Source of the DNA: Azolla caroliniana
Lineage: Eukaryota; Plantae; Polypodiophyta
Length of the DNA: 64,000 bases
Assembly (NCBI GenBank): GCA_043228905.1
Contig: JBHGNT010000016.1
Coordinates: forward strand, 18,352,001 to 18,416,000
Reading direction: 5' to 3'
Shown: positions 25,404-61,135 of the stretch, piece after piece
How the letters are laid out: every line of letters begins with the position of its first letter
Numbering within the stretch: position 1 is the first letter of the stretch
The notes under the pieces: model-generated
Databases searched by the model: none
Told to the model about the DNA's origin: nothing
The model's input: only the letters and a program-made list of their open reading frames with translations
Position numbers and translations under genes: made by a program

Positions 25404-25445
<42 letters not shown>

Positions 25446-27851: not shown

Positions 27852-27904
27852 TCGATCTTTTCCGTACCTTGGGAAGATTGATTGTGTCTTAGTATTACGT
27901 GGAT

Positions 27905-36638: not shown

Positions 36639-39600
36639 GGGAGTGGGGTTGAACCAGATTTTCAACGAAGAGAGAGAGAGTAGAGAGAGAGAATGATGAC
36701 AACAAGAAGTATATTATGTGAAGAAGGATATAAGAACAACTAGGGGTCTTAAGCCTGGCGTTGAACCAAATTGGTTTTGAATAATGCCACATGCCTCAAT
36801 TTATAGTACTATTAGGAGTACTCTTGAAGTTTCTAAATTATTCTAGAGAAATCTAGAATATACATGAATTTCCTATAGTTAAATAATAAATTAAAATAAT
36901 ATTGTTTGTATTATAATGCATAGTTTAATGGTAAGGGTTCTACCCATGTAACACAAGGTAGTGGGTTCAAACCTGTTTGGAGGCATATTAAACGAGGAGT
37001 GTTACGAGTCATCTTTGATTGAGGACTTGGTTTGTCTGGATATTGATGATGGAAGTCTTCAAGAAGAGCTTGAGCATTGGCCACATTTTCTACTGGTTCC
37101 CAAGTACACTCGTTTGGACTATAGCCTAGCCAATCAACCAAATAGTAGAGCTTGTTGCGAACAATCTTGGAATCGAGGATGGCAACAACCTCGTACTTAG
37201 GTCCATCTTCAAGTTCAATCGGGGGTGGAGGTGGTGTAATACGATTGGGAATATTGTTATCTTGATAGGGTTCTAGAAGAGAACTATGAAATACCGGATG
37301 TATCTGTAGTTGCGGAGGTAGATCAAGGCGAAAAGTGACATCATTAATTTTTCCGTTAATACAAAAAGGCCCTAACTGTTGATAATCCAATTTGTCACAT
37401 GGTCGAGTAGTTTTTATGTGTCGTCGTAATAGCCATACTCTATCTCCAATATCAAAACAAGATGGAATCCAGTGACGATCCACATAATCCTTCTGTGTTT
37501 TGTTGGGCTTGATGTAAGTGGGTAGATAGTTTTGCCCGAATCTTTCGTAGTCGCTCCAAATGATTCTCTGCACTAGGATTGGTGGGTAGCTTAGGAGTTT
37601 CTAATACACACTAGCGAGGATGATGGCCTGTATAAGCATAGAATGGTGTAACCCTAATAGAGGAGTGGATAGAATTATTATAAGAAAATTCAGCAAAATG
37701 TAGAATATCTGCCCAATCATCTTGTTCATAGCATTTCAAAAACACCAAAGATATTGTTGCAACATTTTATTTGTATGTTCTGCTTTACCATCTGTTTGGG
37801 GATGATATTTGGAGGAGAGGTTGCATGTGACCTTGTGCATTTTGAAGAGATGCTTCCAAAATTTAGAGACGAATTGTGGTCCACGATAATTGATGATACT
37901 ATCGGGAAGACCATGATGCCGAAATACTTCACGCATAACAATTCCTGTATGTTGAGATATCAAGCTCAACTTAGTTTAGTTAGTTAATCAACACACGTAA
38001 CTTAGTAGTTACCAAGATAGAATCTAGTTAGTGTGTTGACCTTAAAGCCTTAAATAGGATTTTGTACTTGAGTGGGATACATTGTAATATAGGACTTATA
38101 CGGTTGTACCTATATTCTACTCACACATGTGCACCTTTGCACATGAGATGTATATATACCTCATTGTGGGTATTTTTGTATTTGATGATGCTAATTTAAT
38201 ATAGAGTTAATCATCCCCCATCTTGTGTTGTTCATAAGCGTAACTTCCTCTCTGTTCCTCTCACACACATACACACATACACACATATATAACATAATAT
38301 TCTGCTTTACTTAACCACATAATTAGGTACTAATTAACATGTAGTTAATTACCTAAATCTTAACATGGTATTAGAGCGCGTGGTTTAGAAAATCCACTAA
38401 GCCCACCCGACTCCATGATTGTGTGTTCAAGACGCCGACGACAAATTTGGCTATCGGCTACCGTAGTGCCGCTACGTAGCATGTGTATGTGATCGAAGGA
38501 AGAAGAGCAAAAGAAGAGAAAACATTACAACAACATGAACACACAGATGGGTAGCTCGCTCCCTAGTGAAAAGCTAAACTGGAGCAATTGTTCATCTTGG
38601 GAATACAAGATGAATCAATACATTGTCGGCCAAGGGTGTTGGAGCTACATCAACGATGTACAAGAAAATCGACCCGACCCAAAGAACGCTGACTGCGCAA
38701 CATGGGAGCAAGCAGCAAGTGAAGTGATGTATTGCTTGGCAACATGTGTCCACGACCACATGCTTAACCACATTCAAGATGCCAAGACACCTAAAGAGGC
38801 GTGGGAGAACTTGAAGAAGATTTTTGCCGCCAACACGACCGCCTGCAAGCTTCAATTCTGGCAAGAGTTGAATAATATTCGGCAAAAAGATATGTCTGTG
38901 TCAAACTACACCGCCAAGATCAAGAGCATTTACGACTCGCTTGGCTCCATCAACATAAACGTCGACAAAGATGAGATGGTTCAAGTATGCTTGGGTGGCC
39001 TCGCACAACGATTCAACTCGTTGAGGATGACAATCTTAGTGAGGGAAAATCCTCCTTCATTCTTCGATCTCCAATCAATGTTATTGGTCAAAGAGAACCA
39101 CGTTGGAACCAAGACCAAGATGTCGGAAGGACAAATGTTCTTCTCGAATTCGGATGGTGGCCTAGGACGAGGTCGAGGCGGTAGAAGAGATCGATTCGAC
39201 CCCTCTCATGAAGGGAACTCAAACCTTTGACAACATGACAGAAGCCATCGAGGAACCTTCGTAAGAAGGGGGAGCTTCCATGCCGAACAAGGTTAGAAAA
39301 CGTGGCCCACTACTTGCAACTATTGCGGAAAAATCGGCCATCGCGAGGAGTGTTGAAAAAGAAGAAGCGAGTTGGCTTCGACACGCCGACAACTCATAAA
39401 TTACGCCACCAACTCTGAATACGAAGACTATGGTGGGCTATTCGTAATGAGACATGGAGCGAACTCTATGACAGCCTCCGACTCCATGTGCACCTCCAAC
39501 ATGGAAGACGTGTGGTTCGTCGACTCCGTTGCCTCACACCATATGACGTCACACCAAGAGTGGTTCCGTGACTTAGGAATGTCGGATTGAACCGGCTTCA

Positions 39601-42600
39601 TAGAGATGGGAGATGATACCACACATCCGATTCAATACATCGGCAATGTTCCATTCAGCAATGATGGCCAAAAGACTTGCATCAAGAATGTCTTGCACGT
39701 GCCCACAATAACGAAGAATTTGGTCTCGGTCGGCCAAATCGTGGAGCAAGGCATGCAAGTTCGTTTCAACAATGAAGGATGCTTCATCGAGAAAGATGGC
39801 TAACTCATAGCTAAAGGACGGAAAGACGGTCGAATATTCATTCTTGATTCGAACGAGGTGAAATCGGCCATGTATGCCAAAGGTCTCAAAACCGAGACGA
39901 GTGTCGAGTTGTGGCACAAGAGAATCAGCCACATCAACCTCCAACAACTCCGAGCTATGCAAACAAACGGAGTCGTCATTGGACTTCCGACATTTGAATC
40001 GAAATGAGTCGACTGAGTATGCGAAGGGTGTCAACTTGGCAAACAACATCGACTCCCATTCCAGAAGGAGAGCTCCGCAAGTAAAGGCCTCCTTGATGTC
40101 ATACATTCAGATGTATGGGGACTGGCTCAAATGTTGACGATCGGCGGATGCCGATACTATGTAACCTGCATCGACGACTACTCCCGCTACACATGGATCT
40201 TCCCGATGAAGAAGAAGAGCGAAGTGCTCTCCCACTTTCAGAAGCTCAAGAGCCAAGTCGAAAAAGAAATCGGTCGGCACATTCGATGCCTACGATCGGA
40301 TGGAGGAAAGGAGTACTTCTCTGACGGATTCACCTCCTACCTCCAAGGTGAAGGCATCTGGAGAGATTTCTCATGCTAATACACACCCCAACAAAATGGA
40401 GTCGCCGAAAAGAAGAATCGGCACATACTCGAGGTAGCACACACCATGATGCATGAGAATCATATGCTGAACTTCTATGGGCTGAAGTGGCATCCATGGT
40501 CATCTATCTTATGAAGCAGTGCACCACTAATGGAATGCATGAGCTAACTCCCTACGAGCTCCTTCTCGGAAGGAAGCCGATCCTGTCGCACCCCAAGGTG
40601 TTCGGAAGCATTGCAAATGTACGTATGCCGAACGAACAATGACAGAAGCCCGACACGAAGTCGGAGAAATGTATCCTTGTAGGATACTCGTCTGAGAAGA
40701 ATGTATACAAGTGCTATAACCCTTCGACTCGAGCGGTTTGGGTGAGTCGAGACATAGTCTTCGACAAATCGGCATCATGGTATACGCTCGATTTGGCTCC
40801 ACCCGACCCGACTGAGGAAGAGTTGAACGTCAAATCGGAGGATGATATTCAGACAAGTCCTCTACCAAAGGACAATCCAAACCCACACGGGCCTTCATGT
40901 GATGAAAGCATGTCGTGACCAAGTCCGAACTTGGACAAAGGCAAATGTAAGATGCTCGAATACGAAGTTGACCACCCCGACGACAATGATTTGGATGTGT
41001 CGGCTCACTCACAAGACAATGAGTTTGGTGTACCTATCATGTAGACACCCGGAGTAAAGAAGGCGCTCACATCGGCAAGCAAAAAACTTCGACGCTCATC
41101 TAGAGAGAAGAATGTCGTCGCTCGGCTCGACTACAATGCGTACATGACCCATCATTATGCCTTCTCGATGAAGGTTGCGGCCAAACAAGAGCTCGGGAGC
41201 TCTAGAGAAGTGGCTCATGACCCACGATGGGTGCAAGCACTTGGCCTTCGACCATTTCGCGCTACAAGCCTTCGTCACAGGCTTGAGGGGGAGGAACCGA
41301 GACTACCGCCATGAAAATACCGATGCCACAAGCCTAATAGAAGCCGACATCGAAAACCGGACAACGCCGAAAGAAAAATCGGATGTCGGATGCTATACAC
41401 TTGAGCTTGAGGGGGCGTGTTGAGATATCAAGCTCAACTTAGTTTAGCTAGTTAGTCAAAACATGTAACTTAGTAGTTACCTAAATAGAATCTAGTTAGT
41501 GTGTTGACCTTAAACCCTTAAAAAGGATTTTGTACTTGAGTGGGATACATTGTAGATCCTCCACTCCCATGTTCATTTAATATAGGACTTACATGGTTGT
41601 ACCTATATTCTACTCACACATGTGCACCTTTGCACATGAGATGTATATATACCTCATTGTGGGTATTTTTTTATTTGATGATGCTAATTTAATATAGAGT
41701 TAATCATCCCCAATCTTGTGTTGTTCATAAGTGTAACTTCCTCTCTCTCCTCCTATCACACACATACACAAATATATCACATAATCTTCCGCTTAACTTA
41801 ATCACATAATAGGTACTAATTAACCTGTAGTTAATTACCTAAATCTTAACACTATAGTTTCTTCATTAGTGATTTCTTTAGTACAGGGCAATAAATGTGC
41901 CATCTTAGTATCCCGATCAACCACTATTAAGATCGTGTTGAAGCCCTTCGAATCTGGAAGATTTGTGATAAAATCTAGAGAAATAGATTGCTAGGGCTTG
42001 ACGGGGATGGGTAATGGCTCCAATAAACTAAATGGATGATGTATGGGCATCTTTGCTCTGCAACATGTATCACATGTCCGCACGTAGTCTTCGACAAATC
42101 TTTGCATACGTGGCCACCAAAATGATCGTTGTACTAAATCCAACGTTTTAGTACTACCAAAATGTCCAACTGTGTATGTGTCATGAATATTTTGAACTAC
42201 TCGTAGATGGCATGGACCATTGGGTACATACAAAAGTTTCTTAACGAAGAGTAATCTATCATGACATTCGAATTGTCGATAATCCATACTTGGTTGTTGT
42301 GATCATGAACAGGATGCCCGAGAGGAATCAATTTAAACTAGAATAGCTTGAGCGAAAACATTTGTCTTCAAATCTTTGCGTATGGTATCAATAAGGTGGG
42401 AATCTAATGGAGTGTCAAAAATCAAGGTTGCTTGCAGCTGTGTCGGACCCAGGATTACTTGCTTTTGATTTTCGAAGGTCGGATCACCAGGATGAGGTGC
42501 TAGATACGAGCGTTGTGATAATGCATCTGCCTTCCCTTGTTGCTTGCCCGGATGGTATGTAATCTTGAAGTCGAAATGAGTGAGGAACTGGGCCCACTGA

Positions 42601-45351
42601 GCTTTTCGTCTATTTAATATATGAACATTCTGAAAGTGGGCAAGATTATTGTGATCACTAAATACAATGACTTGATGAGGAGATCCTTCTAAGAAATGCC
42701 TCCATTGTGCAAAAGAGTCAACTATTGCTAATAGCTCCTTATATATATATATCTCATAGTTGATTTCGGCGGTGTCAAATTTTGCGCGAGTGGAAAGCTA
42801 CGGGATATAGGTTCTCATCTCGCCTTGATGTGACAAAATACTACCGAGCATGAAATCCGACGCATGATAAATGGTTTTTGTGGATCAACACGAGTTAGAA
42901 TAGGGGCTGATGTAAATGCTTTCTTGAGATCCACAAAAGCTGTGTCCACTTCCTTAGACCAAACAAATGATTGCCCCTTCCTTGTAAACTGTGTGAGAGG
43001 CAAAATAAGATGTGAGTAGTCCTTTATAAACTTGCGATAGAAATTTGCGAAACCTAAAAAGCATTGCACATCTCACAATGAACATGGAGTCTACCACTCT
43101 AACACAGTTTGAACCTTAGCTAGATCCATAGAGATTCCTTCTGAGGAGATGACATAGCCTAGAAATTCCACCTGTTTACAATCAAAACTACATTTCTCTA
43201 GTTTTGCGTAAAACCCATGTTCTTGTAGTCATTTTAGTATTAATAGTACATGGGAATCATGCTCCTAGACTTGTGTCTTTGAATAAACTAGCATATCATC
43301 CAAGTAGATGATCAAACAAATGTCTAAGAGATCTCAGAATATATCATTTGCCATGTGCTTGAAAACTGTTGGTGCATTGGTGAGGCCGAATGGCATAACC
43401 GTATATTCGAAGTGCTCATATCGGGTGCGAAAAGTTGTCTTCCATTCGTCTCTCGGTCGGATCCGTACGAGGTTATATGCTCCTCGTAAGTCTATCTTAG
43501 TGAAAACTTTGCACCATTAATTCTTTCTTGAAGACTCGAGATCAGAGGAAGTGCATACCTATTCCTAATGGTGATCCTATTCAAGCCATGGTAATCCATG
43601 ACTAGGCAAAGTGATCTATCCTTTTTCTTCACAAAGAAGATGGGTGCGCCGGTTGGAGATTTCGAATGTCAAATGAACCCATTTGCTAGATTTTCCTCTA
43701 TGTAGGCTCGAAGAACTTCAAGCTCGCTTGGTGACAAGTTGTAGATCAGTCCCCACAGTGGCTCTTTTCCTAGTTTTAAATCAATAGGACAATCATATGG
43801 TCGATGTTGACGAAGAGTACTAGCTTTTACCTTGTCAAAAACGCAGGCATAATGGTGATACTTCTTTGGAAGTTGAATTGTTGACTCCCTCTTAGTGATA
43901 CTGGAAGGTTTCATTGATATTGGGAATACAAACATTGTTTCAGGTTGCGTCCTTCCTCACTCAATTGATGCAGCGAAATGGTTGAAATTCTATGAGTAGA
44001 TCCTCGAGGTTGACGATACCTAATTTCTCTTGTTCTCCAATCGATTTTGGGGTTGTGTAATTCAAACCATGGTAACCCCAACACAATTGGATGCTTTGGA
44101 CTTCTAATTATATTAAATGATATTTCACACGCCAAAATTTCTGCGACAATATGAACTGGCTCTAACTCTTCTACGATATTTCCGGAAGCAATGGGAGGAC
44201 CATCAATGACTAATATAGAAGTTGGGCAAGGAAGTTTTCTTAGCGATATTTGATGAACTTGGGCAAAATTCCTATCCATGAAGCAAGAATTGTCTCCGGA
44301 ATTAAAGAGAGCTAAGACATGTACTGGAGGATTACTTTTAGTACTAACTGCTACTTGAGCTAAGAACACCTTGCTAACTTGCTTCGAGGGAATGGAACCA
44401 CGAATGTGTTGCATAGATCCAGGGTTGTCCAACCAAACGACTCCTATTTTGGCTGGACTCAATCGTTTAACTCTTCTTCTAGTTAACTAAGGACTTCAAA
44501 TTTATTGGATAGACTTGGACTACTAGGATTATTAGACACTCCTAATGAAATAGACTCGGGTTTAGTACTAACCACTACTTGATTTACTTGTCTTCTTGGC
44601 CTATGGGGACAATTTACTGCAATATGCCCCGGTCCACCGCAATATAGACATAGTCGATTTGTTTGGCATCGTTGCTTTCCCTCTTTCGATAATGGTCTAT
44701 GACGACGTGTGGTGTCAATTTCCATTGGTGTTGGAGTATTTGCCGTAGACACATTATATGACTCCCTTGGAAAAGGGTTTGCTACAATTGAGGCATAGGT
44801 GGGCTCTGATCTTGTCCTTGGCATTTGGAACTGTCATTCCGAACGTCGTTCGAAAAGCCGGTTACCTTGATGTCATTACGTAGGTAATAGCGAAATTGTT
44901 CCAACAATGATTGATCATCCTACAGAATATCGGTGGCGAGAAAACGGAAATCCGTAGCATAAGCTGAGGCCGGCTGATCACCTTGACGCAGTCTTCGGAT
45001 TTTGTTGGTTGTTGTCCTAACTCTATTGGTATCTCCAAAACATGCTTTAAACTTGTTAATAAACTCAAAATGATTTAACAAAGGAGAGCCTTTTTCTAAC
45101 AAAGGGGCGAACCATGCCAGAGTTGTGCCACTAAGTAGTGTGCCTACCAGTCCTACTTGTGATGCATCGGTGGGATGTCGAGAAGGATACATTTGAATCA
45201 CCAAACGTACCTTATTAAGAAATCCTCTAAACTATGATCGTGTTCCATCGAACTTTATAGGAAGACCGATCTTGGGTTCTTTGGGAGTCCCTTGGGTGCT
45301 TGGTCCTTGTTGTTGCAATGACACATAGTTGCTTCAAGTTGTTGCACGCGT
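36596..45351 (-). mobile_element. Second Tcn1-like chromovirus copy (truncated, interrupted by copia A1)
   Basis: Partial 3' LTR ~36596-36986, chromodomain YEVVAILDSKIVRNKLYYLVDWLGY, INT, RH, RT, PR LFNSG, knuckle CLYCGGPGHIAVNCP. Gag is cut at 45351 and the 5' LTR is absent. Confidence 0.9.
37950..41851 (+). mobile_element. Ty1/copia type A copy 1: gag-PR-INT, lacking RT-RNase H
   Basis: LTRs 37950-38365 and 41418-41851, TSD ctgta/ctata, PBS tggtattagagc, PPT gaggggg. Gag, PR WFVDS and INT (IDDYSRYTW, LRSDGGKEY, PQQNGVAE) are present. The RT start DPRWVQA is joined directly to RH-end-like ALGLRP at ~41240. Confidence 0.92.
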
Positions 45352-46430
45352 TGTCGCGAAGTTTCGCGCGCGTGTGTTACTTGGGCAGGACCACGGGAGT
45401 CTTGGACTAGGGAGTACTCAAGGGATAAATATTTATTTATTTATTTATTTTAAATCTTATAAATATAAAGCACTCTTCGAACCCACTCTACGAATCCTCT
45501 CTACGAATTTTCACTCTACGAATCCTCACTCTACGAATCCTCACTCTACAAATCCTCACTCTACAAATCTTCACTCTACGAATCCTCTCTACGAATCCTC
45601 ACTCTACAAATCTTCACTCTACGAATCCTCTCTACGAATCCTCACTCTACGCATCTTCACTCTACGAATCCTCTCTTCGAATCCTCACTCTACGAATCTT
45701 CACGCTACGAACTCTCTCTACGAATTCTCTCTACGAATCCAAGGGGACGATAACACAAACACAAATGCCCGTACATCTTTATGAGGAGGAGGGGTACATG
45801 GGCACACCCGAAATGCTCCCTCATCACAAGACGGCCGAATGTACAAGGAAGACACGAACAAGAAAGAAAGAACGAAGGAAGGAACATGAATGATATCGGC
45901 CAAAGGAGTAAATACGTGTTCGATTCCAACACAAGAGGACCCTTTATAAATAGGGTTTGATTACAATAGCGACTTCTAGCTAATCACTGGCTCAATCAAA
46001 ACATAAATACTAAATGCCCTTAGAGACAAGAGCAAAACCGACCACGGTGAAGATGAACACATGAGCACCACCAAAATGCCAACCCCAACGAACCACGACC
46101 ACCCGAACAACGAGCACACGGGCTCGCAACGACGAACGGGGCTCACAACATCGAACCAACGTAGCTTGATCTCATGAGCAGTTCGTGTGCCAACGTGAAG
46201 AAGACGAGCACGTGGCGATGAGGGGATGAAGGGGTATGAAGAGATGAAGAGAAGTGGTGAAGAAGAAGATGAAGAGCTTTGAAGGAAAAATGGCGATAGT
46301 CTCCTCCTCCCCAAAACGTCCTCCCGAATGAGCCCCCCTCGACCTCCTTTTATAGAAAAAAGAAGAAAGGGGGGGTCGCCAATTTTGTCTTTAATGCAAA
46401 AAAGGAATAAAATTCCTTAACTCACGCTAC
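45352..46430. mobile_element. Long LTR-like insertion truncating chromovirus copy 2
   Basis: Abrupt TGTCGCGAAG start within gag, internal tandem array and tttataaata / ttttatag motifs. Right boundary and TSD not found. Confidence 0.45.
45486..45740. repeat. Minisatellite of 15/13-bp units (ctctacgaatcctca / ctctacgaatcct)
   Basis: About 17-18 consecutive units visible. Confidence 0.9.
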
Positions 46431-49400
46431 GTTGTAAAACTAGATTTGAACAGTGCACCTCTAGCTAGAAGTCAATGTGACTATCCACTAGGCCATTAAC
46501 TCTCTCTTATATAATATATAATTCTATCTCTATAAATTCTTAGCCTGTATCCCCTCTACCTTTTACCTCTCCTCTCTTTTACTTTTTACACAAGCTTGTA
46601 TGCGTCCTTTCCACCCTTTCTATGCATCCCCCATCTTGTGTTGCGCATAACTGTAACTTCCTCTCGCTCTCTTCCTCTCACACACATACACCGACACATA
46701 TCACTTAATCTTCTGCTTAGCGTAGTCACATAATTAGGTACTAATTACCCTTAATTAACTACCTAATTCTTAACATGGTATCGAAGTGTGTGGTTTAGAA
46801 AATCCACTAAGCCCACCCGACTCCGTGATTGTGTGTTCGAGACGCCAATGACAAAATTTGGCTATTACCTACCGTAGTGTCGCAACGTAGCACGTGTACG
46901 TAATCGAAGGAAGAAAAGCAAAATGGAAGACACTGCAATCAACATGAACACACAAATGGGTAGCTTGCTCCCTAGTGAAAAGCTAGACCGGAGCAATTAT
47001 TCATCTTGAGAGTACAAGATGAACCAATGCCTCGTTGGCCAAGGGTATTGGAGCTACATCAATGGCGCTCAAGAAAATTGACCCGACCCAAAGAACACCG
47101 ACTACTCAACATGGGAGCAAGCCGCTAGTTGAGTCATGTATTGCTTGGCAACATGTGTCCACGACCACATGCTTAGCCACATTTGAGACGCCAAGACGCC
47201 TAAAAAAGCGTGGGTGAACTTAAAGAAAATTTTCGCCGCCAACACGACCGCCTGAAAGCTTCAACTCTGACAAGAGTTGAACAACATTCGGCAAAATGAT
47301 ATGTCTGTGTCGGACTATACCGCCAAGATCAAGACCATTTGCGACTCGCTTGGCCCCATCAACGTAAACGTCGACGAAGACAAGGTGGTTCAAGTATGCT
47401 TGGGCGACCTCACACAACGATTCGACTCGTTGAGGACGGCAATCTTAGCGAGGGAAAAACCTCCTTCGTTATTCGACCTTCAATTAATGCTATTGGTTGA
47501 AGAGAACCAAGTCCAAACCAAAACCAAGACATTAGAAGGACAAATGTTCTTCTTGAGTTCGGATGGTGGCTGAGAACGAAGTTGAAGCGGTAGAAGAGGT
47601 CGATTTGACCCATGAAACGAAGAAAAGTCAAACCTTCGACAACAAGACGGAAGCCATCGAGGAACCTTCGGAAGAAGGGGGAGCTTCCATGCCGAACAAG
47701 GTTGGCAAATGTTGCCCATTGCTTGCAACTCTTGTGGCAAAATCGGCCACCACGAGGAGGAGTGTTGGAAAAAGAGAAGTGTGTCGGCTTCGACAAGCCG
47801 ACAACTCACAAACTACGCCAACAACTCCGAATACGACGACTACGGTGGTCTATTTGTAATGAGACACAGAGCGAACTCTATGACGGCTTCCAACTCCACA
47901 AACACATCCAACTCGGAAGACGTGTGGTTCATCGATTCCGGCACCTCACATCACATGACATCCCACGAAGAGTGGTTCAGTGATTTGCGCACACCCGATC
48001 GACCTGACGTCATAGATGGGTGACGACACCACACATCTGATTCGGTACATCGGCAACGTTCCATTCGGCAACAATGGCCAAAAGAATTGCATCAAGAATG
48101 TCTTGCAAGTGCCCACAATAACAAAGAATTTGGTCTCAGTCAGCCAAATCATGGAGCAAGGCATGCAAGTTCGGTTCAACAACAAAGGTTGTTTCATTGA
48201 GAAAGATGACCGACTCATAGCCAAGGGACGGAGAGACGGTGGCATGTTCATCCTCAATTTGAACGAGGTAAAATCAGCTTTGTATGCCAAATGTCTCAAA
48301 ACCGAGACAAACATCGAGTTGTGGCACAAGAGAATCGGCCACATAAACCTCCAACGGCTCCAAGCTATGCAATCAAAGGGAGTCATCATCGGACTTCTGA
48401 CATTTGAGTTGAAACGAGTCGACCAAGTATGCGAAGCGTGTTAACTCGGCAAACAACATCGACTCCCACTCTCAAAGGAGAGCTACACAAGCAAAGGCCT
48501 CCTCGACATCATACACGCTAATGTATGGGGATTGGCTCAAACACCGACAATCGCTGGATGCCAATTCTACGTCACCTTCATCGACGACTACTCGCACTAC
48601 GCGTGGATCTTCCCGATGAAGAAGAAGAGCGAAGTGTTCTCCTACTTCCAAAAGCTCAAGGGTGAAGTCGAAAAAGAAACCGGTCGGCACATTCGATGCC
48701 TACGATCAAACAAAGGAAAGGAGTACTTCTCTGATGAATTCACCTCCTACCTCCAAAGTGAAGGCATTCGGAGAGAATTCTCGTGCCGGCACACACCCCA
48801 ACAAAATGGAGTAGCCGAAAGAAAGAATGAGCAAATACTCTAGGTAGCACGCGCCATGATGCATGAGAAACACATGCTGAATTTCTATTGAGTTGAAGAG
48901 GCATCCACGACCGTCTATCTTATGAATCGATGCACCACCAATGGAGTGCATGAGCTAACTCCATACGAGCTCCTTGTTGGAAGGAAGCCGATCCTGTCAC
49001 ACCTCAAGTTCTTCGGAAGCATTGCGAATGTACGCATCCCAAATGAAAGCCGATAGAAGCCTGATGCGAAGTTGGAGGAATGTATCCGCATAGGATACTC
49101 GTCCGAGAAGAAGGCATACAAGTGCTATAACCATTCGACCCGAGCGGTTCGGGTGAGTCAAGACGTAATCTTCGACGAATCAACATCATGGTATAAGCCC
49201 GATTTGACTCTACCCTACCCGACTGAGGAAGAGTTGAACGTCAACTCGGAGGATGATATTTGGCCAAGCCCTTCACCAAAGGACTATCCAAGCTCTACCG
49301 AGCTAAGTGGACCACACGAGCCTCAAGCCTTCCAACCACGTTGTGGCCAAGTCCGAACTTGGACAAAGGCAAAGGTAAGATGCCCGAATACGAAGTCGAT

Positions 49401-49773
49401 CACCCTGATGATAGTGATTCGGATGTGTCAGCTCCCTCACTAGACAATGAGTTTGGTGTACCCATCATGCGGACACCCAGAGCAAAGAAGGCACTCACAT
49501 CGGCAAGCGAAAAACTTTGATGCTCATCTAGAGCTAAGAACCCTGTCATTCGGCTCGGCTACAATGAATACATGGCCCATCACTATGCCTTCGCGATGAA
49601 GGTAGCGGCCGAACAAGAGCCCAAGAGCTCCACCGAAGCGGCTCATAACTGTTGAGATACAAGCTCAGCATTGGGTGCATAAACGGGTGCGTAACCCAAT
49701 GCATAGACTAGGTGCGTAAAACCGTACACACAAAGGCCGTAATGGTGCGTAAGCCGAGAGGCCGTTAGAGCGT

Positions 49774-52700
49774 TGTCGTGGAGAAAACTGCCCCTAGGAG
49801 GAATCAAGGGGAAGAGGCATGACCCAATCCTTTTCGCGCGCGCATGTGTTTATGAATTGTACATAGCTAGGAATAGATCGGCTGATGTACATATGTACTA
49901 GGAAGGGTATTAATTGTCTAGGGAATCGATGCGTATCTCTGTCCGAAAGGACAGAGAATAAAGTTGATCTGTTTTGATGAACGGCCTCCTCGGCGACCTA
50001 TAAAAGGGAGGGGAGAAGAAGAAGAAACTATCATGTTTTGGCGAGGAGGAAGTGTTGTCGGACTGTTGCTCTCCACTACATCTCTGTGTCGGTTACCATC
50101 TGTTGCGTGTAAGCCCGTGTACTTCCAGTAGAGGCTCCACCGTGCGTTCTCTGTGTCGTCCGTGTGTGTGCATGGGACCTTCGTTTTGGGTCTGATGCTG
50201 ATTGTAATCGTTGTTGACATAGTAATTGAATCTTCTGTTCCCATTTCTCTCTCTCCCTGTTTTTCTGTGAATCGCTCTCCCTCTTCTTTCTCATGCTCCT
50301 TGGTCCAGGGCCCCCGCGGTCCTGCCTCATTTCACATGCAAGAGCGTAACAACACGACATAATTTGGTGAACCCAACGTGAAAGAAGGCGGCAAAGGAGT
50401 TGAAGATGAGGGGATCCGAGCTTGCTGAAGCTATGGCAGTAGCCGTCGACCGACTAGTGAGTGCTCGTGAGGGAAAGGGTGCCCTTGATAGGGCCGTAGA
50501 ATCTATTGTCGACACCATAGGCCGATTTGGTGGGAAGAATGCCACGAGCTATTTGGAGGCCTATCGGGCCGAAATGATCATGAGGGACATCCTGGAGGAC
50601 AGATGGTTGTTCGGATTCCCTCGATTGGTGACGCCGAGCATCCTCGTGGAGGTGCTCGAGGTGCTGACCGGATGCCAGGCTTGGGTGGAGCTCGAGGGGC
50701 GGCTCCTCGAGAAGTATGGGTACGACGATTCTCTTCAGCTATCGAAGCGGGACTTCATGGCTTGGGTTGAGAGCCCTAGAAAGGGGAGGAACGCGTTGAT
50801 GCTCCTCCAGGAATTCGAACAACGATTTGCTAGGCTGTCGGCGTTGGATTGGACCGTGCTTGACACGAACAGGGTCTTGTTGTTCGTCAAGTCGGTGCAT
50901 GTGCTGGATCGGGAAAAGGTGGCTCTCCTATTGGAGATGGATGAAGGCCTCACGACCGACTGGGCCGTGGTCAAAGGAGTCTGCGCCCGCTTTGACAAGT
51001 GGCGCGAGTGGAGCGATGAGGGCTCAACGGCGTCGGGGCCGGTCCCAGCGAGGAAGCTCGAGGAGTCGGTATCGGTGTCGGCTGGGGAGGAAGAGACTCG
51101 GAATTGGCTCGAGACGGGCCCAACCTCGAGCGGAGTGGTCCAAGGCTCTTTTGGAGGAGCGGCTTTGGAAGAGCTGACGCAAATGGTGCGCAACCTCCAT
51201 ATCGCACAAGCACGGAGGGACAACGACGATCAACCTCGTGACTGGAGGCCGCTGATGGGGCAACGATGTAGGTGGTGTGACGCCGTCAGTCACATCCGGA
51301 AAGATTACGCGTATTTCGCAGAGGCACTCCGGGCCAACGTGGTGTACCTCTGGAATGGGCGGGTGCATGCCGACGACACGCGGAAAGCCTTAGAGTTGAA
51401 CACTGGGCGTGGTGGGATGAAGCGCTTGATGGAAGAAACCGCGGTGCGACATGCGGAGGCCGTCCATTACTCAGCGTCAAGGGCGACGAGGGCCGGAAGA
51501 CGAAAGACCCTGGATTCTGGCCGCTGGTGCTGGAAGGCCTCTCCGGGGTACGGCTGAAGAAGGAGGAGACGGACCGCGCGGAACGGCGGATCCGGGAGGT
51601 CACCGGATGGGACGATCCGGTTGAAGAAAAGACTGGCTTCGTGGAAGCCGCATGCCAGAACTACGAGGTTCTGGTAGAAGACAAGCGCGTGGGAAGGGCT
51701 GGAGGGGCCGGTCCCTCACAATGGTACGAGACTCGGTTCAAACCAAAGCAAAACGATGCCGACAACATCGAGGTGCCGGATAAAACGAAATGAGTCGGTT
51801 ACCGACTGAGCATAGAGATTGAGAGGTCAACAGACGTGCAGAAGGTCCTTGAGGAGCGGATTCTTGATAGCAAGATGGAGCTGTTGCTGAGGGAGGTGCT
51901 CGGAATCGCCAAGAAGGAGTTCCATGACTCCATTGTGGACTTGGTGAAGCGAAAGTGGCTCTCGACGGAGCCGAAACCGGAGAAGCCCGTGGAGGTGCGG
52001 ACGATGCACCTAGAAGACATGGCCCTAGAGGACGAGTTGGCGCACAACTACCACGGCTCGGAGATCAACCTAATGCCCATGAACTTCTACAAAAAGGGGA
52101 AGTGGCTGATTAACACCAAGCACGGGTGGAAGATACGCGCGACGACACACGCTACGGAGGAGCTGCATGGTGCGTGCCCGAATGTACGCGTAAAGATCGA
52201 CGACTTCTTTGTGTAGGAGACCTCCTCGCACCCGGTGATACTCGGCGAGCCATACATTACGGTGGCATGGATGGAAATGAAGGTGCTTAACAACGGATCA
52301 GCGTACGCGTGCGTGAAGAGCCCAAGACGGACAACGCTTCGTTCAATTTTTGACGGTGAGGCTGAACCATGAGCGTAACCGTGAGACCCTTGGCGGTGAG
52401 AGCCGAGGGGATTTTTAGAGAGGGCTATCAAGGCGTGGGGCCGTTATAGTCCGGACACCCCGGAAGAACCCCACACGTGTACCATAGGTAGAAAATTTTG
52501 GTTCTCTGATAACGGAGGTTGTACCACAGTCGACATCAGTGGCCGGGAAAAGAAGAGGGCAGAAGAAAGACTCAGGGCGCTTGGGGTCCCCGGCCCCGAC
52601 GAAGAGATTGGCAGTGCCATGGAGGCGGTCTCCTTCGATGACACCATGGGGGAATTACGCGAGGTTGTCGAAGGAGACCTTAGTGAAGACCGGGCAGTTC

Positions 52701-55700
52701 CTGTTAATTCAGTAGAGATGTACGAAGTCATCGCTGACTTTGGGGAAAAGGTCGGGTCCGGTCGGATAGCCCGCGTGGATACCAGGTACAAGACTGTGGA
52801 CCAGAAGGTGAGGCCAGTTGCGGCACCCTTGCCAGAGGGCAGCGGAGGGCGGATAAAAGAGGTCACACGGACCCAAGTTTACGGCAACCGATTCACCAAC
52901 ATAACGCTACGAGAGCTCAAGGTTGGTGGGGGTGGGTTTCTACTACCGGCGGAGGAGGATTGGTTCCGGAGGATGCTCGAAAGGCAGGGGAAACCCTTCA
53001 CATTCTCGCCGGAGGAGATCGGGTGCGCAAACCCGACGATCGTGGAGCCGATGGTGATATTCACGGTGCCACATGTGCCGTGGAATCTCAAGCCGATTCC
53101 GGTACCCAGAGCTCACATCCCGAAGTTGATGGAGCTACTGAAGTAGAAGGTGGAGATGGGCATCCTCGAACTGTCGAATGCCCCATATTCGAATCGGTGG
53201 TTTACTGTGCCAAAGAAGAACGGCACGTTGCGCTTCATTCAGGACCTGCAACCGGTCAACAGGGTGACCACTCGTAATGCAGGTATCGGACTGACGATAT
53301 ACGAGTTTGCGGAAGCCTTCGCCGGAAGGTCAATCTATTCAATCGGTGGTCTGTACTCAGGGTATGACCAGTTCCAACTAGCCATGGAGAGCAGGGATAT
53401 CACGACGATGCGGACCCCTCTTGGCTTAGTACGGATGTGTACCCTACCGCAAGGAGGGACAAACTCGGTGGCGCACATGGTGAATGCAATGAACAAGGTG
53501 CTAAAGGACTGCATCCCATGCATCACCATGCCATTCCTGGACGACATCCCGATCAAAGGATGTCTAGTGGAGGATAAGGACGAGGCGGTTGGGCCAGATG
53601 GATGTCGGAGGTTCGTCGCGGACCACATTAATGACTGCGAGAAGGTGTTGCAAAGGCTGGAGGACGTGCGGCTCACCTTCTCCGGGGAGAAATCAACGTT
53701 CGGCCAATTGGATATCCTAGTGGTCGGTCACCTGTGCGGGCCCTACGACTGGAAACCGTCTCTGGCAAAGATAGAAGCCATCTCCGTAATGAAGGAAGAG
53801 TGCAAGTCGGTTACGGAGGTGCGGAGGTTCTTGGGCGCATGCACGTTCTACCACATCTGGATTCTGCACTACGCACATGTCACGGAACCACTCTATGGGT
53901 TGCTAAAGAAGGGGCGCAAATTTGAATGGGGCAAGGAGCATGCAGAGTCGGTCCGGAGACTGAAGGAGGCGCTTACCGTGGCACCGGCTCTCAGGAAAGC
54001 GGTCTACGGCAAGGATGTCCCCATCTACGTAACCGTTGACACAAGCCCGACCGGGATTAGATGGGTGATCAATCAGGAGGACGAGAGCGGCGCGCGGTTC
54101 CCGATCCGGTTCGGGGCGAAGCTCCTCAGTGAGCGACAACGAGGGTACGCCCAAGTTAAGCGTGAACTATGGGGTATCGTTTCGGCGGTTAAGGCCGACA
54201 AAGATTATCTTATAGGGACGGAGGTAATAATCGAGACAGACTGCCTACCGATTCTCGATATGATTTCCGGATGCGTGACTCCGGACCTGGCAATGCTCAG
54301 GTGGATCACATACATCAAGTCCCTAAATCCGGAGATACGGCACATCTCCGGGAAGGACAACGCCATGGCCAACATGCTTTCGAGAGCACGGTTCGATGAT
54401 GAGGACGACATGGTTTCGGAGGACGAGGAAGTCGGCATAGACTTCTTCGAGACAACATACATAACGAGGGAGAGGAGCCCTCCGGCACTTAACGAATTTC
54501 ACGAAGGTGAGTACGATGGGGAGTGGCTCCAGATCGGTAGGTTCCTGAAGACAATGACACCAAATGCATAGTGGACAAAGGAAGAGGCTAACCGGATTCG
54601 AAAGAAAGCTTACCGGTTCTTCCTACGGGACGAGAACATATGGAGGCTCCCAAAGAAGCGAGGCAGTGTTCCACTCCGCGTAGTGGCGAGAAAGGACGAG
54701 CAGGACAAGTTGTTAATGGCGTACCACGAGAGTCCCTTGGCCGGGCACCGCGGGACCTGGGCCACGTTCGAGAAACTGAAAGAGAAGTATTGGTGGCTGG
54801 GGCTGTACCGGGATGTGTCCAAATTCGTGATGACGTGTGAAAACTGTCAGATGCACTCCGCGATCCGGCATCGAGACGAGCTGCACCCAACCTACCCGTC
54901 GACCATCCACTTCAAATGGACGGTGGACTTAGTGACAATGCCGATGGGGGTAGGGCAGATGCGGTATCTGGTGCTTGCGCGGGAAGATTTAACGAACCAA
55001 GTGGAAGGCTACGTGCTAACGAACAAGACGACTGCGACAGTGTGCCGGTTCCTGATCGAAGAGGTGGTGTGCTGGTACTGATGCATGGGAAAAATAATGG
55101 CGGATCGGGGAGAGCTGGACGTGCAGGAAGCTGAGGAGCTGTTCGACCGGTTAGGGGTCAAGATCTCCCTCACTATGGCGTACAATCCGGAGGCGAACAG
55201 GAAGGTAGAGTGCGGACACAGACCGATCGTGAAGGCTTTGGTACGAGCGTGTGAAGGGAAGGTTAGGAATTGGCTGCGGCTTCTACCCTATGCGATGTGG
55301 GCGGACCGGACTAAGCACAGTTCGGTGACAGGGTTCATGCCGGCAGAATTGATGTACGGGCAAAAACCGATTATGCCAGTGGAACAGATGATCACTTCGT
55401 GGGTCGCGGTGGACTGGAAGGACGAGATGAGCTGGGAAGAGTTTCTGGCGGCACGGATTCGGCAGCTCGAGCGACGACCGGAGGACGTGGGGCAGGCGGT
55501 GGCGAAATTACGTGCGGCGGGTGAAAGAAACAAAGGCTGTTTCGATCGAACACACCGGCTGAGACCGAAGAAGATCGAGGAGGGCGATTGGGTGTTGGTG
55601 CACGACAGTAGCCTCGATAATTAGCACAAGGCGATGCGTAAGTTTGCGAGGAGATGGTTCGGGCCCTACACGGTGACAAGTGCGAACGACAATGGCACGT

Positions 55701-56548
55701 ATCATCTAGCGGAGCTTGATGGGACGCAGATAGCGGTACCGGTGGCCAGCAAGAGGGTCAAGATTTTCAAGAAGCGGCATGAGGATGAACCGGACCCGGT
55801 GAGCGATGGCGACGGCGGTGCCTGAATTGGGGAAGGCGAGGGTTCGGAAAACGACAAGTGATCTAGGGCCAGTTTCCGCCAAGGTTGTTCCTACCTGGCC
55901 CGTACCGGTGGACGTGCCGTTTATTGGGGGTGGATGTTGTGGAGAAAACCGCCCCTAGGAGGAATCAAGGGGAAGAGGCGTGACCCAATCCTTTTCACGC
56001 GCGTGTGTGTTTATGAATTGTACATAACTAGGAATAGATTGGCTGATGTACATATGTACTAGGAAGGGTATTAATTGTCTAGGGAATCGATGCGTATCTC
56101 TGTCTGAAAGGACAAAGAATAAAGTTGATTTGTTTTGATGTAACGGCCTCCTCAACGACCTATAAAAGGGAGGGTAGAAGAAGAAGAAACTATCGCGTTT
56201 TGGCGAGGAGGCAGTGTTGTCGAACTGGAAACCGAGGTCTCTCTCCCTCTACCGTTGCTCTCCACTATGTCTTTGTGTCAGTTACCATCTGCTGCGTGTA
56301 AGCCCGTGTGCTTCTAGCGGAGGCTCCATCGTGCGTTCTCTGTGTCGTCCGTGTGTGTGTGTGGGACCTCTGTTTTTGGTCTATTGCCACTTGTAATCAT
56401 TGTTGACATAGTAATTGAATCTTTTGTTCCCGTCTCTCTCTCTCCCTGTGTTTCTGTGAATCGCTCTCCCTCTTCTTTCTCACGCTCCTTGGTCCAGGGC
56501 CCCCGCGATCCCGCCTCATTTCACATGCAAGAGCGTAACAACATGACA
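49774..56548 (+). mobile_element. Full-length GC-rich Ty3/gypsy element C (Ylt1/fungal-like pol), inactivated
   Basis: LTRs 49774-50359 and 55935-56548, 4-bp TSD gcgt/acgt, PPT ggggtgga. Pol IQDLQPVN, LPQGGTNS, PFLDDIPIKG, TVDTS, ETDC, INT H..PLAGH..CENC, WFGPY. Stops and frameshifts present. Confidence 0.92.
50365..50381 (+). promoter_or_regulatory. PBS complementary to tRNA-Trp 3' end
   Basis: TGGTGAACCCAACGTGA versus plant tRNA-Trp 3' end ...TCACGTCGGGTTCACCA (one mismatch; tRNA sequence from recall). Confidence 0.7.
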
Positions 56549-59500
56549 ACGTTATTTCTCGTAAGGAATAATTTTGGGAGTTAGTGTAAGAGGCTCATTA
56601 ATGAGCATTGAAGTATGTGTCAGTACTCGGACAATACTTCTGTCTGTCCATAAGGACTTGCATAAAAAGTGCCAATTGAGCACATCTTGTATAGAGTCAC
56701 AGAGAATTATTTTTGAATCTAAGTTTTGTGTGTTCTGCTCACACACACACACACACTCTCTCTCATTCTCAATCTCTCTTGCATACGTTGTGTCGTGTAC
56801 AACGCTTTCCATTAAACCTTCTCTTCGTCATCTGTGTTACACGGTTGTGTTCGTTACGCTTCCATACACGCGTTGAAATCCTCTATGGCCGACAAACAAA
56901 CAAACATCACCATGAAGAACTAAAGAAAAATAAGAATGGATAGAGGGATGGTTAGCTTGCTTCCTACACAGAAGCTCGACAGAAGCAACTATACATTTTG
57001 GTCGTACAAGATGCACTAGTACCTACTTGGGCATGACTACTAGAGTTATGTCGATGGAGCTAACGACCGAGCACCTGAATGGACACATTGAGACTTCCTG
57101 GCCTGGGAACATGCGGCTAACAGAGTTCTATACTACCTTACGTCCTGTGTGAGCGACCAGCTCTTGAGCTACATTTGGGATGCCAAGACGCCAAAGGACG
57201 TGTAGGCGAATCTCAAGAGGATCTTCACCGCGAGCACAACGACCAGGAAGCTGCAACTCAGACAGGAGCTCAACAATGTCCGACAGAAAGATCTGTTTGT
57301 GGTCGATTACACGGCTCGAATCAAGGAAATCTGCGATTCTCTCGCCTCCATCAATGTAAACGTCGAGGAAGATGAAATGGTGCAGGTGTGCCTCGGAGGG
57401 CTAGCGTCCAAGTTCGGAGCTTTCCAAATGGCGGTATGCACAAGGGAGAATACACCATCATTCTTCAAGCTTCAATCGATGTTGCTCGTAGAGGAAAATC
57501 ACGTGGGTGGGTCGACAAGTACGCACTCTAACATCAAAATGTTGTACACGGAGGAAGATAGGCCCCATGGTCGTGGTGGACGTGGCGGATTGGCGCGCAA
57601 TGGAGGCAGCCAAAAAGAGCAGAACGTGCGGCATAATCAAAATGTTGGATGCAGTTCTGAACCCTCCGGAAGTAGGGGGAGTCATGGTGGCGCCGGAAAC
57701 CGGCAAGAGAAGGCTGCGATAGACTGTTGGTGTTGTGGCAAGAAAGGCCATAGGGAGAGCGAGTGTTGGAATAAACGAGCCAATTCCGACAAAGCTGGAT
57801 TGAGCCGAAGAGATGTAGAGAGGCATCAAAGGTCACACTACGTAGAAGGCTCTGAACGATCCGGAAATGGATCGGGCCCAGGCTTCGTATTGAAGCACAA
57901 GCCCCGTAAAGAGATACGGGTATAATGAGTACATGGCACAACATTATGCGTACATGACGCGAGTGGTGGAAGTGCGTGAGCCGGAGAGCCACACAAAAGC
58001 GGTGAAAGACGCAAACTAGCGTGCCGCAATGGAGGAAGAGATGTGTGCGTTATTGGACAACGAGACTTGGGACCTAGTTGACGCACATAAGGGTATGAAG
58101 CCGATCGGATGCAGATGGGTGTATAAGGTCAAATACAACACCGACAGCTCTGTCAACCACTACAAGGCCCGATTAGTGGCGAAAGGCTACGCGCAAAAGC
58201 ACAGTGTGGATTACAACGAGACCTTCGCGCTGGTCGCGAAGACGACCACCGTGCGTGTTCTGTTAGCCGTAGCAACGACGAAGGGGTGGCATCTACATCA
58301 GATGGATGTGAAAAATGCGTTCCTGCAAGGTGACCTTGAGGAGCAGGTATACATGGTACAACCCCCCAGATTCTTATCCAAACAGAACACTTCAGTAGTG
58401 TGCTGATTGAAGAAGTTGTTATATGGACTTAAGCAAGCCCCGCGAGCTTGGAACACGAAGATTACACAACAATTGCGTAAGATGGGGTTTGCACCATCGA
58501 AGTCGGACTCTTCATTGTTCATTCGGCAAGGTCGACATGGCCCGGTTAGCCTCTTACTTTATGTTGATGATCTAGTCATTTCCAGTGCCGACCTGGACGA
58601 AATTGGCCGCGTAAAGTCTCAGCTTGTGGCATCATTCAACATGAAGGATCTTGGAGACCTTCATTACTTCCTTGGGATCGATGTGATCCGCACCCTCGAA
58701 GGCATATTGATTAGCCAACATCATTACGTATTGAATATGCTCTTCAAGTTCGGGATGGCAGATTGTAAGCCCATTTCGACCCCTCTGGATAGAAACATCT
58801 AGCTTCGTTGAGATTCGGGAAAGGCGTGTGACCCGACATGGTTCCGAAAGATTGTCGGAAGCCTAATCTATTTGACGATCACTTGGCCGGATCTCAGCTA
58901 CCTAGTCGGCCTCATCAGTCAATTTATGTCGCAACCCACGGCTGACCACTTTCAGTGCGCACAAAGGATATTGCGATATGTCAGCAGCACTAAAGACATG
59001 GCGTTGCTATATCGGGCAAGCGTAGCCGAACGGTTAGTTGGCTACACGGATGCCAATTGGGTCGGCAATGCCAACGATCGTAGATCCACATCCGGATACG
59101 CATTCTCAATGGGAAATGCGGCGATCGCGTGGAGCAATAAGAAGCAGCCGACAGTAGCACTGTCGAGCATGGAGCCTGAATATCGAGGGGCAATTGTCGC
59201 TACATGCGAAGTCATTTGGCTAAAATGACTATTACGAGATCTACACGTGGAGGTGTCCGCTCCGACGACGATCTATTGTGACAACCTTAGCAGCATCCAA
59301 CTTGCGAAAAACCCCGTATTTCACCCTCAGACCAAGCACATTGAGGTGCATTACCATTTTGTCCGTGAGCATGTCCTTTCCGGTGAAGTCGAACTAGCGT
59401 ATGTTTTGATAGGTCAGCAGATTGCCGACGTATTCACCAAGCCGCTAGGTCTTGACAAGTTACGACAATTCTCGGATGCACTTGGGTTGCGCCACCTCGA

Positions 59501-60364
59501 CACATCGAACTTGAGGGGGGAATAGGAACAAGAGCATGAGCTTGAAAGGAGCGGAAGTGATCATTGTGATGCCGAGTCGGATGAAGAATTCAACTTCGGG
59601 TCGGCTGAAGAAGCCGAAGATGAGTACAGGGACCGTAACCGCAGAGAAGAGCCAAAGACAGCCGAAAAAGGGGGCGATAAGGCCAAGACCAAGACATGGT
59701 CTGACATTGTTAAAGGCCTAAAGACTGAAGACGAATTGGAGACAACCAATTTGGATGTAAGGGAAATGAATCGGAAGTGACTTATTCAATTGAAATGTTC
59801 GATTCAAACATGCCGAATCAACAAAGGGCCAAGTGGAGGAAAGGGTAGCGAAAGAAGCGCCAACACCGCGACCGCAAGGGAGCTGAGAAGGGCCACACGA
59901 GCAGACAAACAGACTGGAAGGGTCGAGGCGCACAGAATCGAATGGGTCGAGGAGCGCGTGCGAGGCGTGAAGCTAGGAGAAGTCGGAGCGAAGATCTGGA
60001 AGAGCAAGCAGAACCTCAAGTTGAGCTTGAGGGGGAGTGTTGAGATACAAGCTCAACATTGGGTGCGTAAACAAGTGCATAACCCAGTGCGTAGATAGGG
60101 TGCGTAAAATCATACGCACAAAGGCCGTAATGGTGCATAAGCTGAGAGGCCGTTAGAGCGTTATTCCTCGTAAGGAATAATTTTGGGAGTTAGTGTAGGA
60201 GGCTCATTAATGAGCATTGAAGTATGTGTCAGTACTCCAACAATACATCTGTCTATCCATAAGGACTTGTATAAAAAGCGCCGATTGAGCGCATCTTGTA
60301 TAGAGTGAAAGAGAGTTATTTTTGAATCTATGTTTTGTGTGTTTTGCTCACACACACACACACA

Positions 60365-60405
<41 letters not shown>

Positions 60406-61135
60406 TCTCTATCTCTCCTGCATACGTTGTGTCGTGTACAAAGCTTTCCATTAAACCTTCTCTTCGTCATCTGTGTTACACGGTTGTTTCTATTATGCTT
60501 CTACACACGCTATTCTTTTACAATAACCCACGATGGGTGGAAGTAGTCGACCTTCACCCACACACTACAAGCCTTCGTCACCGGCTTGAGGGGCAGGAAC
60601 CGAGATTGCCACGACGAAGAAAGCCGAAGGCCGGACGGAAGCACACGAAGCCGACAAAAGCCAAAGCGGATGTCAGATGCCTCACACTTGAGCTTGAGGG
60701 GGTGTGTTGAGAGATCAAGCTCAACTTAGTTTAGTTATTTAGTCAACCATGTAACTTCGTAGTTACCTATATAGAATCTAGTTAGAAGTGTTGACTATAA
60801 CATCTTAAAGAGGACCTTGTACTTAAGTGGGATATTCTAGATCCTCCACTCCCAAGTACATTTAATATGGGACTTACACCTTTGTACCTTTGTACACATG
60901 TGCACCCTTGCACATGAGATCTACATATACCTCATTGTAGGTATTTTTGTATTTGATGATGATGTTAATTTAATATAGAGTTAATCATCCCCCATCTTGT
61001 GTTGCTCATAAGGGTAACTTCCTCTCTCTCTCTTCCTCTCACACACACACACATACATATCACTTAATCTTCCGCTTAGCTTAGTCACATAATTAGGTAT
61101 TAATTAACCCTTCATTAACTACCTAATTCTTAACA

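What the first reader, a model, noticed from the sequence alone, without database searches (positions are those of the whole stretch)
37950..61135. Complementary (bipartite) copia pair: type A gag-PR-INT and type B gag-RT-RH
Seen: A1 (37950-41851) and A2 (46625-61135) both lack RT and RNase H, with the same junction just after the (D/N)PRW motif that opens RT. Their 3' tails have diverged, so the deleted form appears to have replicated. B (49650-60522) has the reciprocal deletion, running from the end of gag (FVLKHK, ~57900) to the INT-RT linker YNEYM, and keeps full RT-RH. A and B have related gag, the same LTR start (TGTTGAGATA(T)CAAGCTCA) and the same PPT context (TTGAGCTTGAGGGGG), but otherwise different LTR bodies. 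Established: copia needs PR, INT, RT and RH, and non-autonomous elements can be mobilised in trans. Inference: A and B may form a mutually dependent two-component retrotransposon. Caveats: only one internal B copy is in the window, its gag-RT junction is out of frame by one base, and all copies carry premature stops. Similar pairs may already be reported in angiosperms, so novelty needs a literature check.
Basis: partly seen in the sequence, partly recalled or inferred. Interest (0 to 1): 0.88.

Follow-up and report, generated by a model that had tools for sequence, protein, structure and literature searches.

The report
Copia lineage missing only reverse transcriptase
The proposed two-part jumping gene is not supported: element B is one broken copy of an ordinary complete plant retrotransposon family, whereas the A elements form a real lineage that lost its copying enzyme but keeps capsid, protease and integrase genes under selection and likely borrows that enzyme from complete relatives.

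Summary
The anatomy is as described: A1 and A2 are gag-PR-INT copia elements without RT-RNase H; B, nested in A2, is gag-RT-RH without PR-INT. The partnership is not supported. In four DNA runs, 0 of the 32 longest listed contig pieces cross B's junction. Relatives continue from gag into protease and reach RT from the integrase linker. Of 25 informative B-type loci, 24 run gag into protease and none shares the junction. B also lost its primer site after insertion. Complete elements share the same termini. A is a real replicating lineage: six sequences join the integrase linker to one tail, two are fully open frames with intact catalytic motifs, and dN/dS is 0.14-0.39 in gag, PR and INT. Best reading: A is a semi-autonomous copia family that likely borrows RT-RH from complete sister families, B's among them, with no dependence in return. 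Known semi-autonomous families keep gag or gag-PR; keeping integrase is the variant. Not tested: whether RT-bearing A-type copies exist in the host. No earlier finding of this scan matched.

The parts
37950..38365 (+). A1 5' LTR; target-site duplication CTGTA (37945-37949) / CTATA (41852-41856)
38366..38377 (+). A1 primer-binding site, tRNA-Met 3'-end type, one change from the family motif
   Evidence: tRNA identity recalled
38535..41235 (+). A1 gag-PR-INT-linker (approximate bounds), with stops and a frameshift near 40478
41220..41417 (+). A1 deletion junction (start of RT joined in frame to the last residues of RNase H), family tail, PPT at 41403-41415
41418..41851 (+). A1 3' LTR
46625..46775 (+). 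A2 5' LTR remnant (3' 151 bp only), followed by a degenerate PBS
46940..49649 (+). A2 gag-PR-INT-linker (approximate bounds), with stops and frameshifts
49650..49773 (+). B 5' LTR, first part; left target-site copy ATAAC at 49645-49649
49774..56548 (.). Gypsy element nested in B's 5' LTR (LTRs 92% identical); not part of the A/B system
56553..56871 (+). B 5' LTR, second part; ends in a deletion that removed the LTR end and the PBS (56871|56872)
56936..57901 (+). B gag, 4 stops; ends at the out-of-frame PR-INT deletion 57901|57902 (about 1.7 kb missing, by comparison with L064 and L030)
57902..59522 (+). B end of INT-RT linker, RT and RNase H, 5 stops
59523..60037 (+). B 3' region (a related stretch follows RNase H in L002 and L003) and PPT at 60023-60035
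60038..60522 (+). B 3' LTR, complete; right target-site copy ATAAC at 60523-60527
60528..60704 (+). A2 deletion junction, family tail and PPT (60690-60702)
60705..61135 (+). A2 3' LTR

Best explanation
A1 and A2 belong to a replicating Ty1/copia lineage that lacks RT-RNase H, keeps gag, protease and integrase under purifying selection, and likely gets reverse transcription from complete sister families, while B is likely a single decayed copy of one such complete family. Shown: the A architecture recurs in six sequences, two of them fully open frames with intact PR and INT motifs; B-type gag normally runs into PR, and B-type RT normally follows the INT linker. Inferred: A transcripts make their own Gag, PR and INT; these co-assemble with a helper's Gag-Pol in mixed particles; the helper RT-RH copies A RNA using the shared tRNA-Met primer site and PPT; A's own integrase inserts the cDNA. 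B's family encodes all domains and would not need A. This B copy likely lost PR-INT by an ordinary deletion after insertion, as it lost its PBS, and is predicted to be dead even in trans.
For: A lineage: intact 936-aa P0001 and a one-frame gag-PR-INT-tail in L026, whose only stop lies just inside the 3' LTR. The linker-to-tail join without RT is in A1, A2, L026, L053, P0001 and P0002. A1-A2 internal distance is 0.18 against 0.07 between each one's LTRs. dN/dS for L026 against A1 and A2 is 0.14-0.21 in gag, PR and INT; for A1 against A2 it is 0.19-0.39, and every interval for these three regions lies below 0.6. A forms its own clade in gag (97/98) and INT (97, quick tree) trees. The nearest RT-bearing INT found is 67-69% identical (P0015). 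B: in runs X1, X2, X5, X9, 0 of the 32 listed longest pieces bridge 57901|57902. Loose ends before 57902 (95, 83, 119, 73 contigs) carry the INT-RT linker, and loose ends behind 57901 (27 in X1, 22 in X5) continue into protease. 24 of 25 informative B-type loci run gag into PR, and L064 holds B-type gag, PR, INT and RT on one contig. The closest RT relatives P0008 and P0010 (74-76%) have INT C-terminal sequence upstream. Complete L030 and B-family L002/L003 have the same termini.
Against: No host genome was held, so no genome-wide count was made. Both read-laying runs were centred on B, so RT-bearing A-type copies in the host were not looked for at the A junction. The residues at the A junction differ among copies (A1 and A2 keep the PRW motif; L026, L053, P0001 and P0002 do not), which could mean more than one deletion. 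One search lists 32 of 6,488 pieces, so a short junction contig could be unlisted, and the runs hold at most 0.36 of B's words. The loci come from other samples and perhaps other species. The helper is not identified; trans-mobilisation and expression were not tested.
Confidence: 0.82

Rival explanations
1. A and B form a mutually dependent two-component retrotransposon: A supplies PR and INT, B supplies RT and RNase H.
For: Domain contents are complementary; termini, PPT context and gag are related. A keeps INT under selection. Both LTR types are well covered in the runs laid (depth is not copy number).
Against: The B junction was not seen in any other sequence: 0 of 32 listed pieces and 0 of 25 loci. 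It is out of frame. Other deleted B-type copies break at unrelated points (L018, L024, L078). B's family is complete (L064; L002, L003, L008 for gag-PR or gag-PR-INT). Shared termini are a clade trait, also seen in complete L030. B lacks its PBS.
Confidence: 0.04
2. An autonomous A-type family with RT-RH exists or existed until recently in the host, and RT-less A copies arise from it once or several times, so the purifying selection measured acted partly in the autonomous parent.
For: Junction residues differ among A copies. P0015 has an A-like linker fused to RT. The A junction was not examined in host runs.
Against: All six A-clade sequences that show the linker-to-tail region lack RT. Two are fully open frames through the junction. 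No RT-bearing protein above 69% INT identity was found. P0015 lies outside the A clade.
Confidence: 0.12
3. All three copies are unrelated post-insertion deletions in a repeat-rich region, and no RT-less lineage ever replicated.
For: All window copies carry stops, and the region holds many truncated elements.
Against: A1 and A2 share the junction and tail, sit in different flanks, and differ by far more than their LTR pairs do. The same architecture is intact in P0001 and L026.
Confidence: 0.02

Closest known systems
Semi-autonomous LTR retrotransposons of wheat: RLG_Quinta with RLG_Cereba (PMC11302176, passages read); RLG_Sabrina_SA and WHAM with RLG_Wilma (PMC9744471, passages read)
   Same: A high-copy derivative lacks RT, keeps an intact ORF, and depends on a complete relative with shared terminal motifs.
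   Different: Those are gypsy elements that keep gag or gag-PR and lack INT; A is copia and keeps PR and INT with the catalytic motifs intact.
TR-GAG elements and the sugar-beet non-autonomous families (PMC13570524, passages read)
   Same: LTRs, PBS, PPT and gag (often PR) are kept; RT is lost.
   Different: TR-GAG-like families there keep GAG/PROT only, and the 15 families with further Pol domains are described as partly decayed; A's INT is open and under purifying selection.
BARE-1/BARE-2 of barley (named in passages and references of PMC13570524; details recalled)
   Same: A copia family with a fixed lesion in one gene is complemented in trans by a related complete family.
   Different: BARE-2 lacks functional Gag and keeps Pol (recalled, and the title of the cited paper); A keeps Gag-PR-INT and lacks RT-RH.
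Physcomitrium RLC5/tRLC5, Bryco lineage (PMC7466625, passages and section 15; bioRxiv 10.1101/2023.05.19.541548, passages)
   Same: A copia family of a non-seed plant with full-length and abundant truncated forms.
   Different: Bryco uses a half-tRNA-Met primer (PMC6317226, passages); A and B have the tRNA 3'-end type PBS. The domains missing in tRLC5 were not stated in the text I read.

Membership tests
Ty1/copia LTR retrotransposon | Copia-type gag and RT (RVT_2), with INT upstream of RT | tested here: met
   Pfam PF14223, PF13976, PF00665 and PF07727 (rve scores just under Pfam's cut-off on the fragments); order gag-PR-INT-RT-RH in relatives L030 and L064
Ty1/copia LTR retrotransposon | Direct LTRs with TG...CA ends, 5-bp target-site duplication, PBS and PPT | tested here: met
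   A1 has all; B has LTRs, TSD and PPT but lost its PBS; A2 is 5'-truncated
Non-autonomous / semi-autonomous LTR family (type A) | The same coding loss shared by independently inserted copies | tested here: met
   A1, A2, L026, L053, P0001, P0002; junction residues vary
Non-autonomous / semi-autonomous LTR family (type A) | Retained ORF intact and under purifying selection | tested here: met
   Open frames in P0001 and L026; dN/dS 0.14-0.39 in gag, PR, INT
Non-autonomous / semi-autonomous LTR family (type A) | An identified autonomous partner that mobilises it | tested here: inconclusive
   Complete sister families share termini (B family, L029/L030, P0015); which one acts is unknown
Non-autonomous / semi-autonomous LTR family (type A) | Trans-mobilisation shown in cells or particles | not testable with these tools
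   Needs particle or extrachromosomal-DNA data
Mutually dependent bipartite pair (A+B) | The B deletion recurs in independent copies | tested here: not met
   0 of 32 listed pieces; 0 of 25 loci
Mutually dependent bipartite pair (A+B) | No complete relatives with the same termini | tested here: not met
   L030 complete; B family complete by L064 and the loose ends
Mutually dependent bipartite pair (A+B) | Matching age distributions and co-expression | not testable with these tools
   No host genome; no RNA holder listed
TR-GAG | Gag (with or without PR) only, no INT | tested here: not met
   A keeps the full INT
Bryco / tRLC5 | Half-tRNA-Met primer-binding site | tested here: not met
   PBS is TGGTATCAGAGC-type directly after the LTR; criterion from PMC6317226 passages
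Bryco / tRLC5 | Placement in the REXdb Bryco clade | not testable with these tools
   No REXdb reference sequences were available

The most novel reading that the evidence does not exclude
Type A is an old copia lineage with no autonomous form left. It makes its own capsid, protease and integrase and takes only RT-RNase H from sister families with unrelated LTR bodies, through mixed particles.
Probability: 0.3. Interest if true: 0.5.

Novelty: new variant of a known kind. Interest (0 to 1): 0.3.

Why it matters
A true two-component retrotransposon would have been striking, but B does not support it. What remains is a clean example of a retrotransposon that outsources one enzyme module while selection keeps its integrase. 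The semi-autonomous families in the papers I read keep gag or gag-PR only. Type A would let one test which proteins act in cis (Gag, PR, INT) and which can be shared across families (RT-RH). Such elements are also missed by RT-based annotation.

Tried and rejected
Host genome: none held, so no genome-wide census. RNA: no RNA holder listed; no conclusion drawn. Viral-contig scans with B RT and A2 INT gave no useful locus (L001 is an 18-residue match and was left out). A search with B gag for longer proteins found only two A-type proteins among 737 candidates; this is weak evidence on B-type polyproteins. The 50%-cluster search with P0001 returned distant unnamed copia proteins, 28-46% identical. 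Cluster look-ups gave no organism names. Depth was not used as copy number. Splicing as the origin of B's junction: rejected, because the flanks in relatives show no AG acceptor and the deletion is in DNA. Segmental duplication for A1/A2: rejected, because flanks differ and A1 has its own TSD. Shared termini as a sign of partnership: rejected, because complete L030 has them. A hairpin around the PPT: z from -0.4 to -4.2, and L002 prefers another fold; inconclusive. The careful INT tree did not finish; the quick tree is cited. dN/dS for B against L002 (0.12-0.16) reflects the complete parent family and says nothing on selection after the deletion. Ten literature searches listed no complementary gag-PR-INT / gag-RT-RH pair and no INT-retaining RT-less family by title or abstract start; most listed papers were not opened. 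Subscription journals are largely missing from the library. I vaguely recall a report of complementary pairs in angiosperms and could not verify it. No supplements were read.

Full report
Observation. The window is a nest of plant retroelements. The host is likely a fern: earlier scan notes say so (unchecked), and the nearest named relatives of RT and INT include many Adiantum nelumboides proteins. Self-comparison and translation confirm the three elements. A1 (37950-41851) has two LTRs at 93.6% identity, a CTGTA/CTATA target duplication, a PBS and a PPT. A2 (46625-61135) is 5'-truncated and is split by B at a perfect ATAAC duplication. B (49650-60522) has LTRs at 90.7% identity, the 5' one split by a gypsy. 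Pfam gives gag, PR, pre-INT and INT for A, and gag and RT for B.

The junctions. In A1 the first residues of RT (HDPRWVQA) are joined in frame to LGLRP, which ends RNase H in the complete relative P0017/L030. A2 has the same join with diverged residues. In B the end of gag is joined out of frame to the last part of the INT-RT linker at 57901|57902. About 1.7 kb is missing by comparison with L064 and L030.

B is a decayed copy of a complete family. I laid contigs of four DNA runs (three studies, three organism labels) on B and on its junction. All 32 listed longest pieces stop at the junction; 6,456 shorter ones are not listed. Loose ends before 57902 (95, 83, 119 and 73 contigs) match the INT-RT linker of complete relatives. 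Loose ends behind 57901 (27 in X1, 22 in X5; rows for X2 and X9 are not among the 24 of 381 shown) match the start of protease as in L002 and L003.

Related loci say the same. Of 80 loci from metagenome contigs, 25 have a B-type gag that reaches its end with at least 90 bases beyond. 24 continue into protease, one (L078) jumps to RNase H, and none has B's junction. Other deleted copies (L018, L024) break elsewhere. L064 carries B-type gag, PR, INT, linker and RT on one contig. The closest RT proteins with upstream sequence (P0008 76%, P0010 74%) have INT C-terminal sequence before RT.

B also shows a second lesion. Its 5' LTR lacks the last 12 bases and the PBS while its 3' LTR is whole. The two LTRs are identical at insertion (established), so this deletion came afterwards and leaves the copy without a primer site. 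The PR-INT loss is likely of the same kind (inference).

Shared termini do not mark a partnership. The complete element L030 (1,451 codons, a single stop after RNase H) and the B-family contigs L002 and L003 have the same LTR start, PPT context and PBS. In the gag tree A (97/98), B (96/97) and the L029/L030 family (97/90) are three separate groups of one clade (100/99).

A is a real lineage. P0001 is an open 936-aa gag-PR-INT protein ending in the same tail as A2, and P0002 is a further-deleted form with that tail. L026 is LTR-PBS-gag-PR-INT-tail-PPT-LTR in one frame, with the only stop just inside the 3' LTR. Both P0001 and L026 keep the protease, zinc-finger and D,D,E motifs. L053 shows the same linker-to-tail join. 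So all 6 A-clade sequences that show this region lack RT. A1 and A2 differ by 0.18 substitutions per site internally, against 0.066 and 0.070 between their own LTRs (the A2 value rests on 149 bases), so they diverged as replicating lineages before inserting. dN/dS is 0.14-0.21 for L026 against A1 and A2 in gag, PR and INT, and 0.19-0.39 for A1 against A2; the linker is less constrained, 0.23-0.54 (Nei-Gojobori with bootstrap). The nearest RT-bearing INT found is P0015 at 67-69%, outside the A clade in the quick INT tree.

Against this reading: junction residues vary among A copies; the host was not searched for RT-bearing A copies; the loci are from other samples; a short B-junction contig could be unlisted; the runs hold at most 0.36 of B's words.

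Mechanism. Shown: architecture, recurrence and selection in A; completeness of B's family. Inferred: A expresses Gag-PR-INT, co-assembles with a complete relative's Gag-Pol, is reverse transcribed by the helper using the shared tRNA-Met site and PPT, and is integrated by its own INT. A cis preference of INT would explain why it stays under selection. B's family, the L030 family and the P0015 family are all candidate helpers, and none needs A.

Comparison with the known. It works like the semi-autonomous partners of wheat, RLG_Quinta and RLG_Sabrina_SA (PMC11302176, PMC9744471; passages), and like TR-GAG elements (PMC13570524; passages), which keep gag or gag-PR. It is not a TR-GAG because INT is kept. 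It fails the Bryco PBS criterion (PMC6317226; passages), so it is not filed with tRLC5 (PMC7466625, passages and section 15; bioRxiv 10.1101/2023.05.19.541548, passages). [quoted passage not shown] Ten searches listed no paper on a complementary pair or on an INT-retaining RT-less family; the library lacks most subscription journals and most listed papers were not opened.

Verdict. Observation confirmed; bipartite reading not supported (about 0.04); A is a new variant of a known kind. Interest 0.3.

Noticed in passing
window 49645-49650 and 60523-60545: B inserted into A2 about 15-20 bases upstream of A's RT deletion junction, so the nested locus reads gag-PR-INT followed by gag-RT-RH. Likely chance, but it is what makes the pair look complementary.
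   Followed up: partly
window 41403-41438, 60023-60058, 60690-60725; L030 5812-5868: The 10 bases before the G-run of the PPT are the reverse complement of bases near the LTR start, in A, B and, with one mismatch, L030. They could form a stem around the PPT-LTR border. Folding z-scores were -0.4 to -4.2 and L002 preferred another fold.
   Followed up: partly
window 41285-41292, 59500-59512, 60587-60594: A second PPT-like motif sits at the old end of RNase H, about 110-520 bases upstream of the PPT next to the LTR, in both A and B.
   Followed up: no
window 15628-16042 and 17535-17988: Solo LTRs of B type (flanked by AAATG on both sides) and of A type (GTTTC/ATTTC).
   Followed up: partly
window 16504-17100, minus strand: A fragment related to B's 3' region and LTR, with a longer LTR start.
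   Followed up: no
window 27893-32749, minus strand: An open 1,618-codon gypsy gag-pol frame that appears to carry a second RNase H before the integrase (read by eye, not scanned).
   Followed up: no
window 32893-35969, minus strand: A LINE-like endonuclease and RT region, with a 747-codon open frame (read by eye).
   Followed up: no
window 19588-25530 and 36669-45351: Two related gypsy elements in opposite orientations, about 80% identical, with a chromodomain-like end; A1 is inserted in the second.
   Followed up: partly
window 25595-26340 (+) and 62700-64000 (-): RT and RT-RNase H remnants of more distant copia families, 30-43% identical to B's protein.
   Followed up: partly
protein P0002; locus L049: A-type derivatives with further internal deletions (P0002 lacks most of INT in an open frame; L049 lacks PR and most of INT), suggesting stepwise reduction towards gag-only elements.
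   Followed up: no
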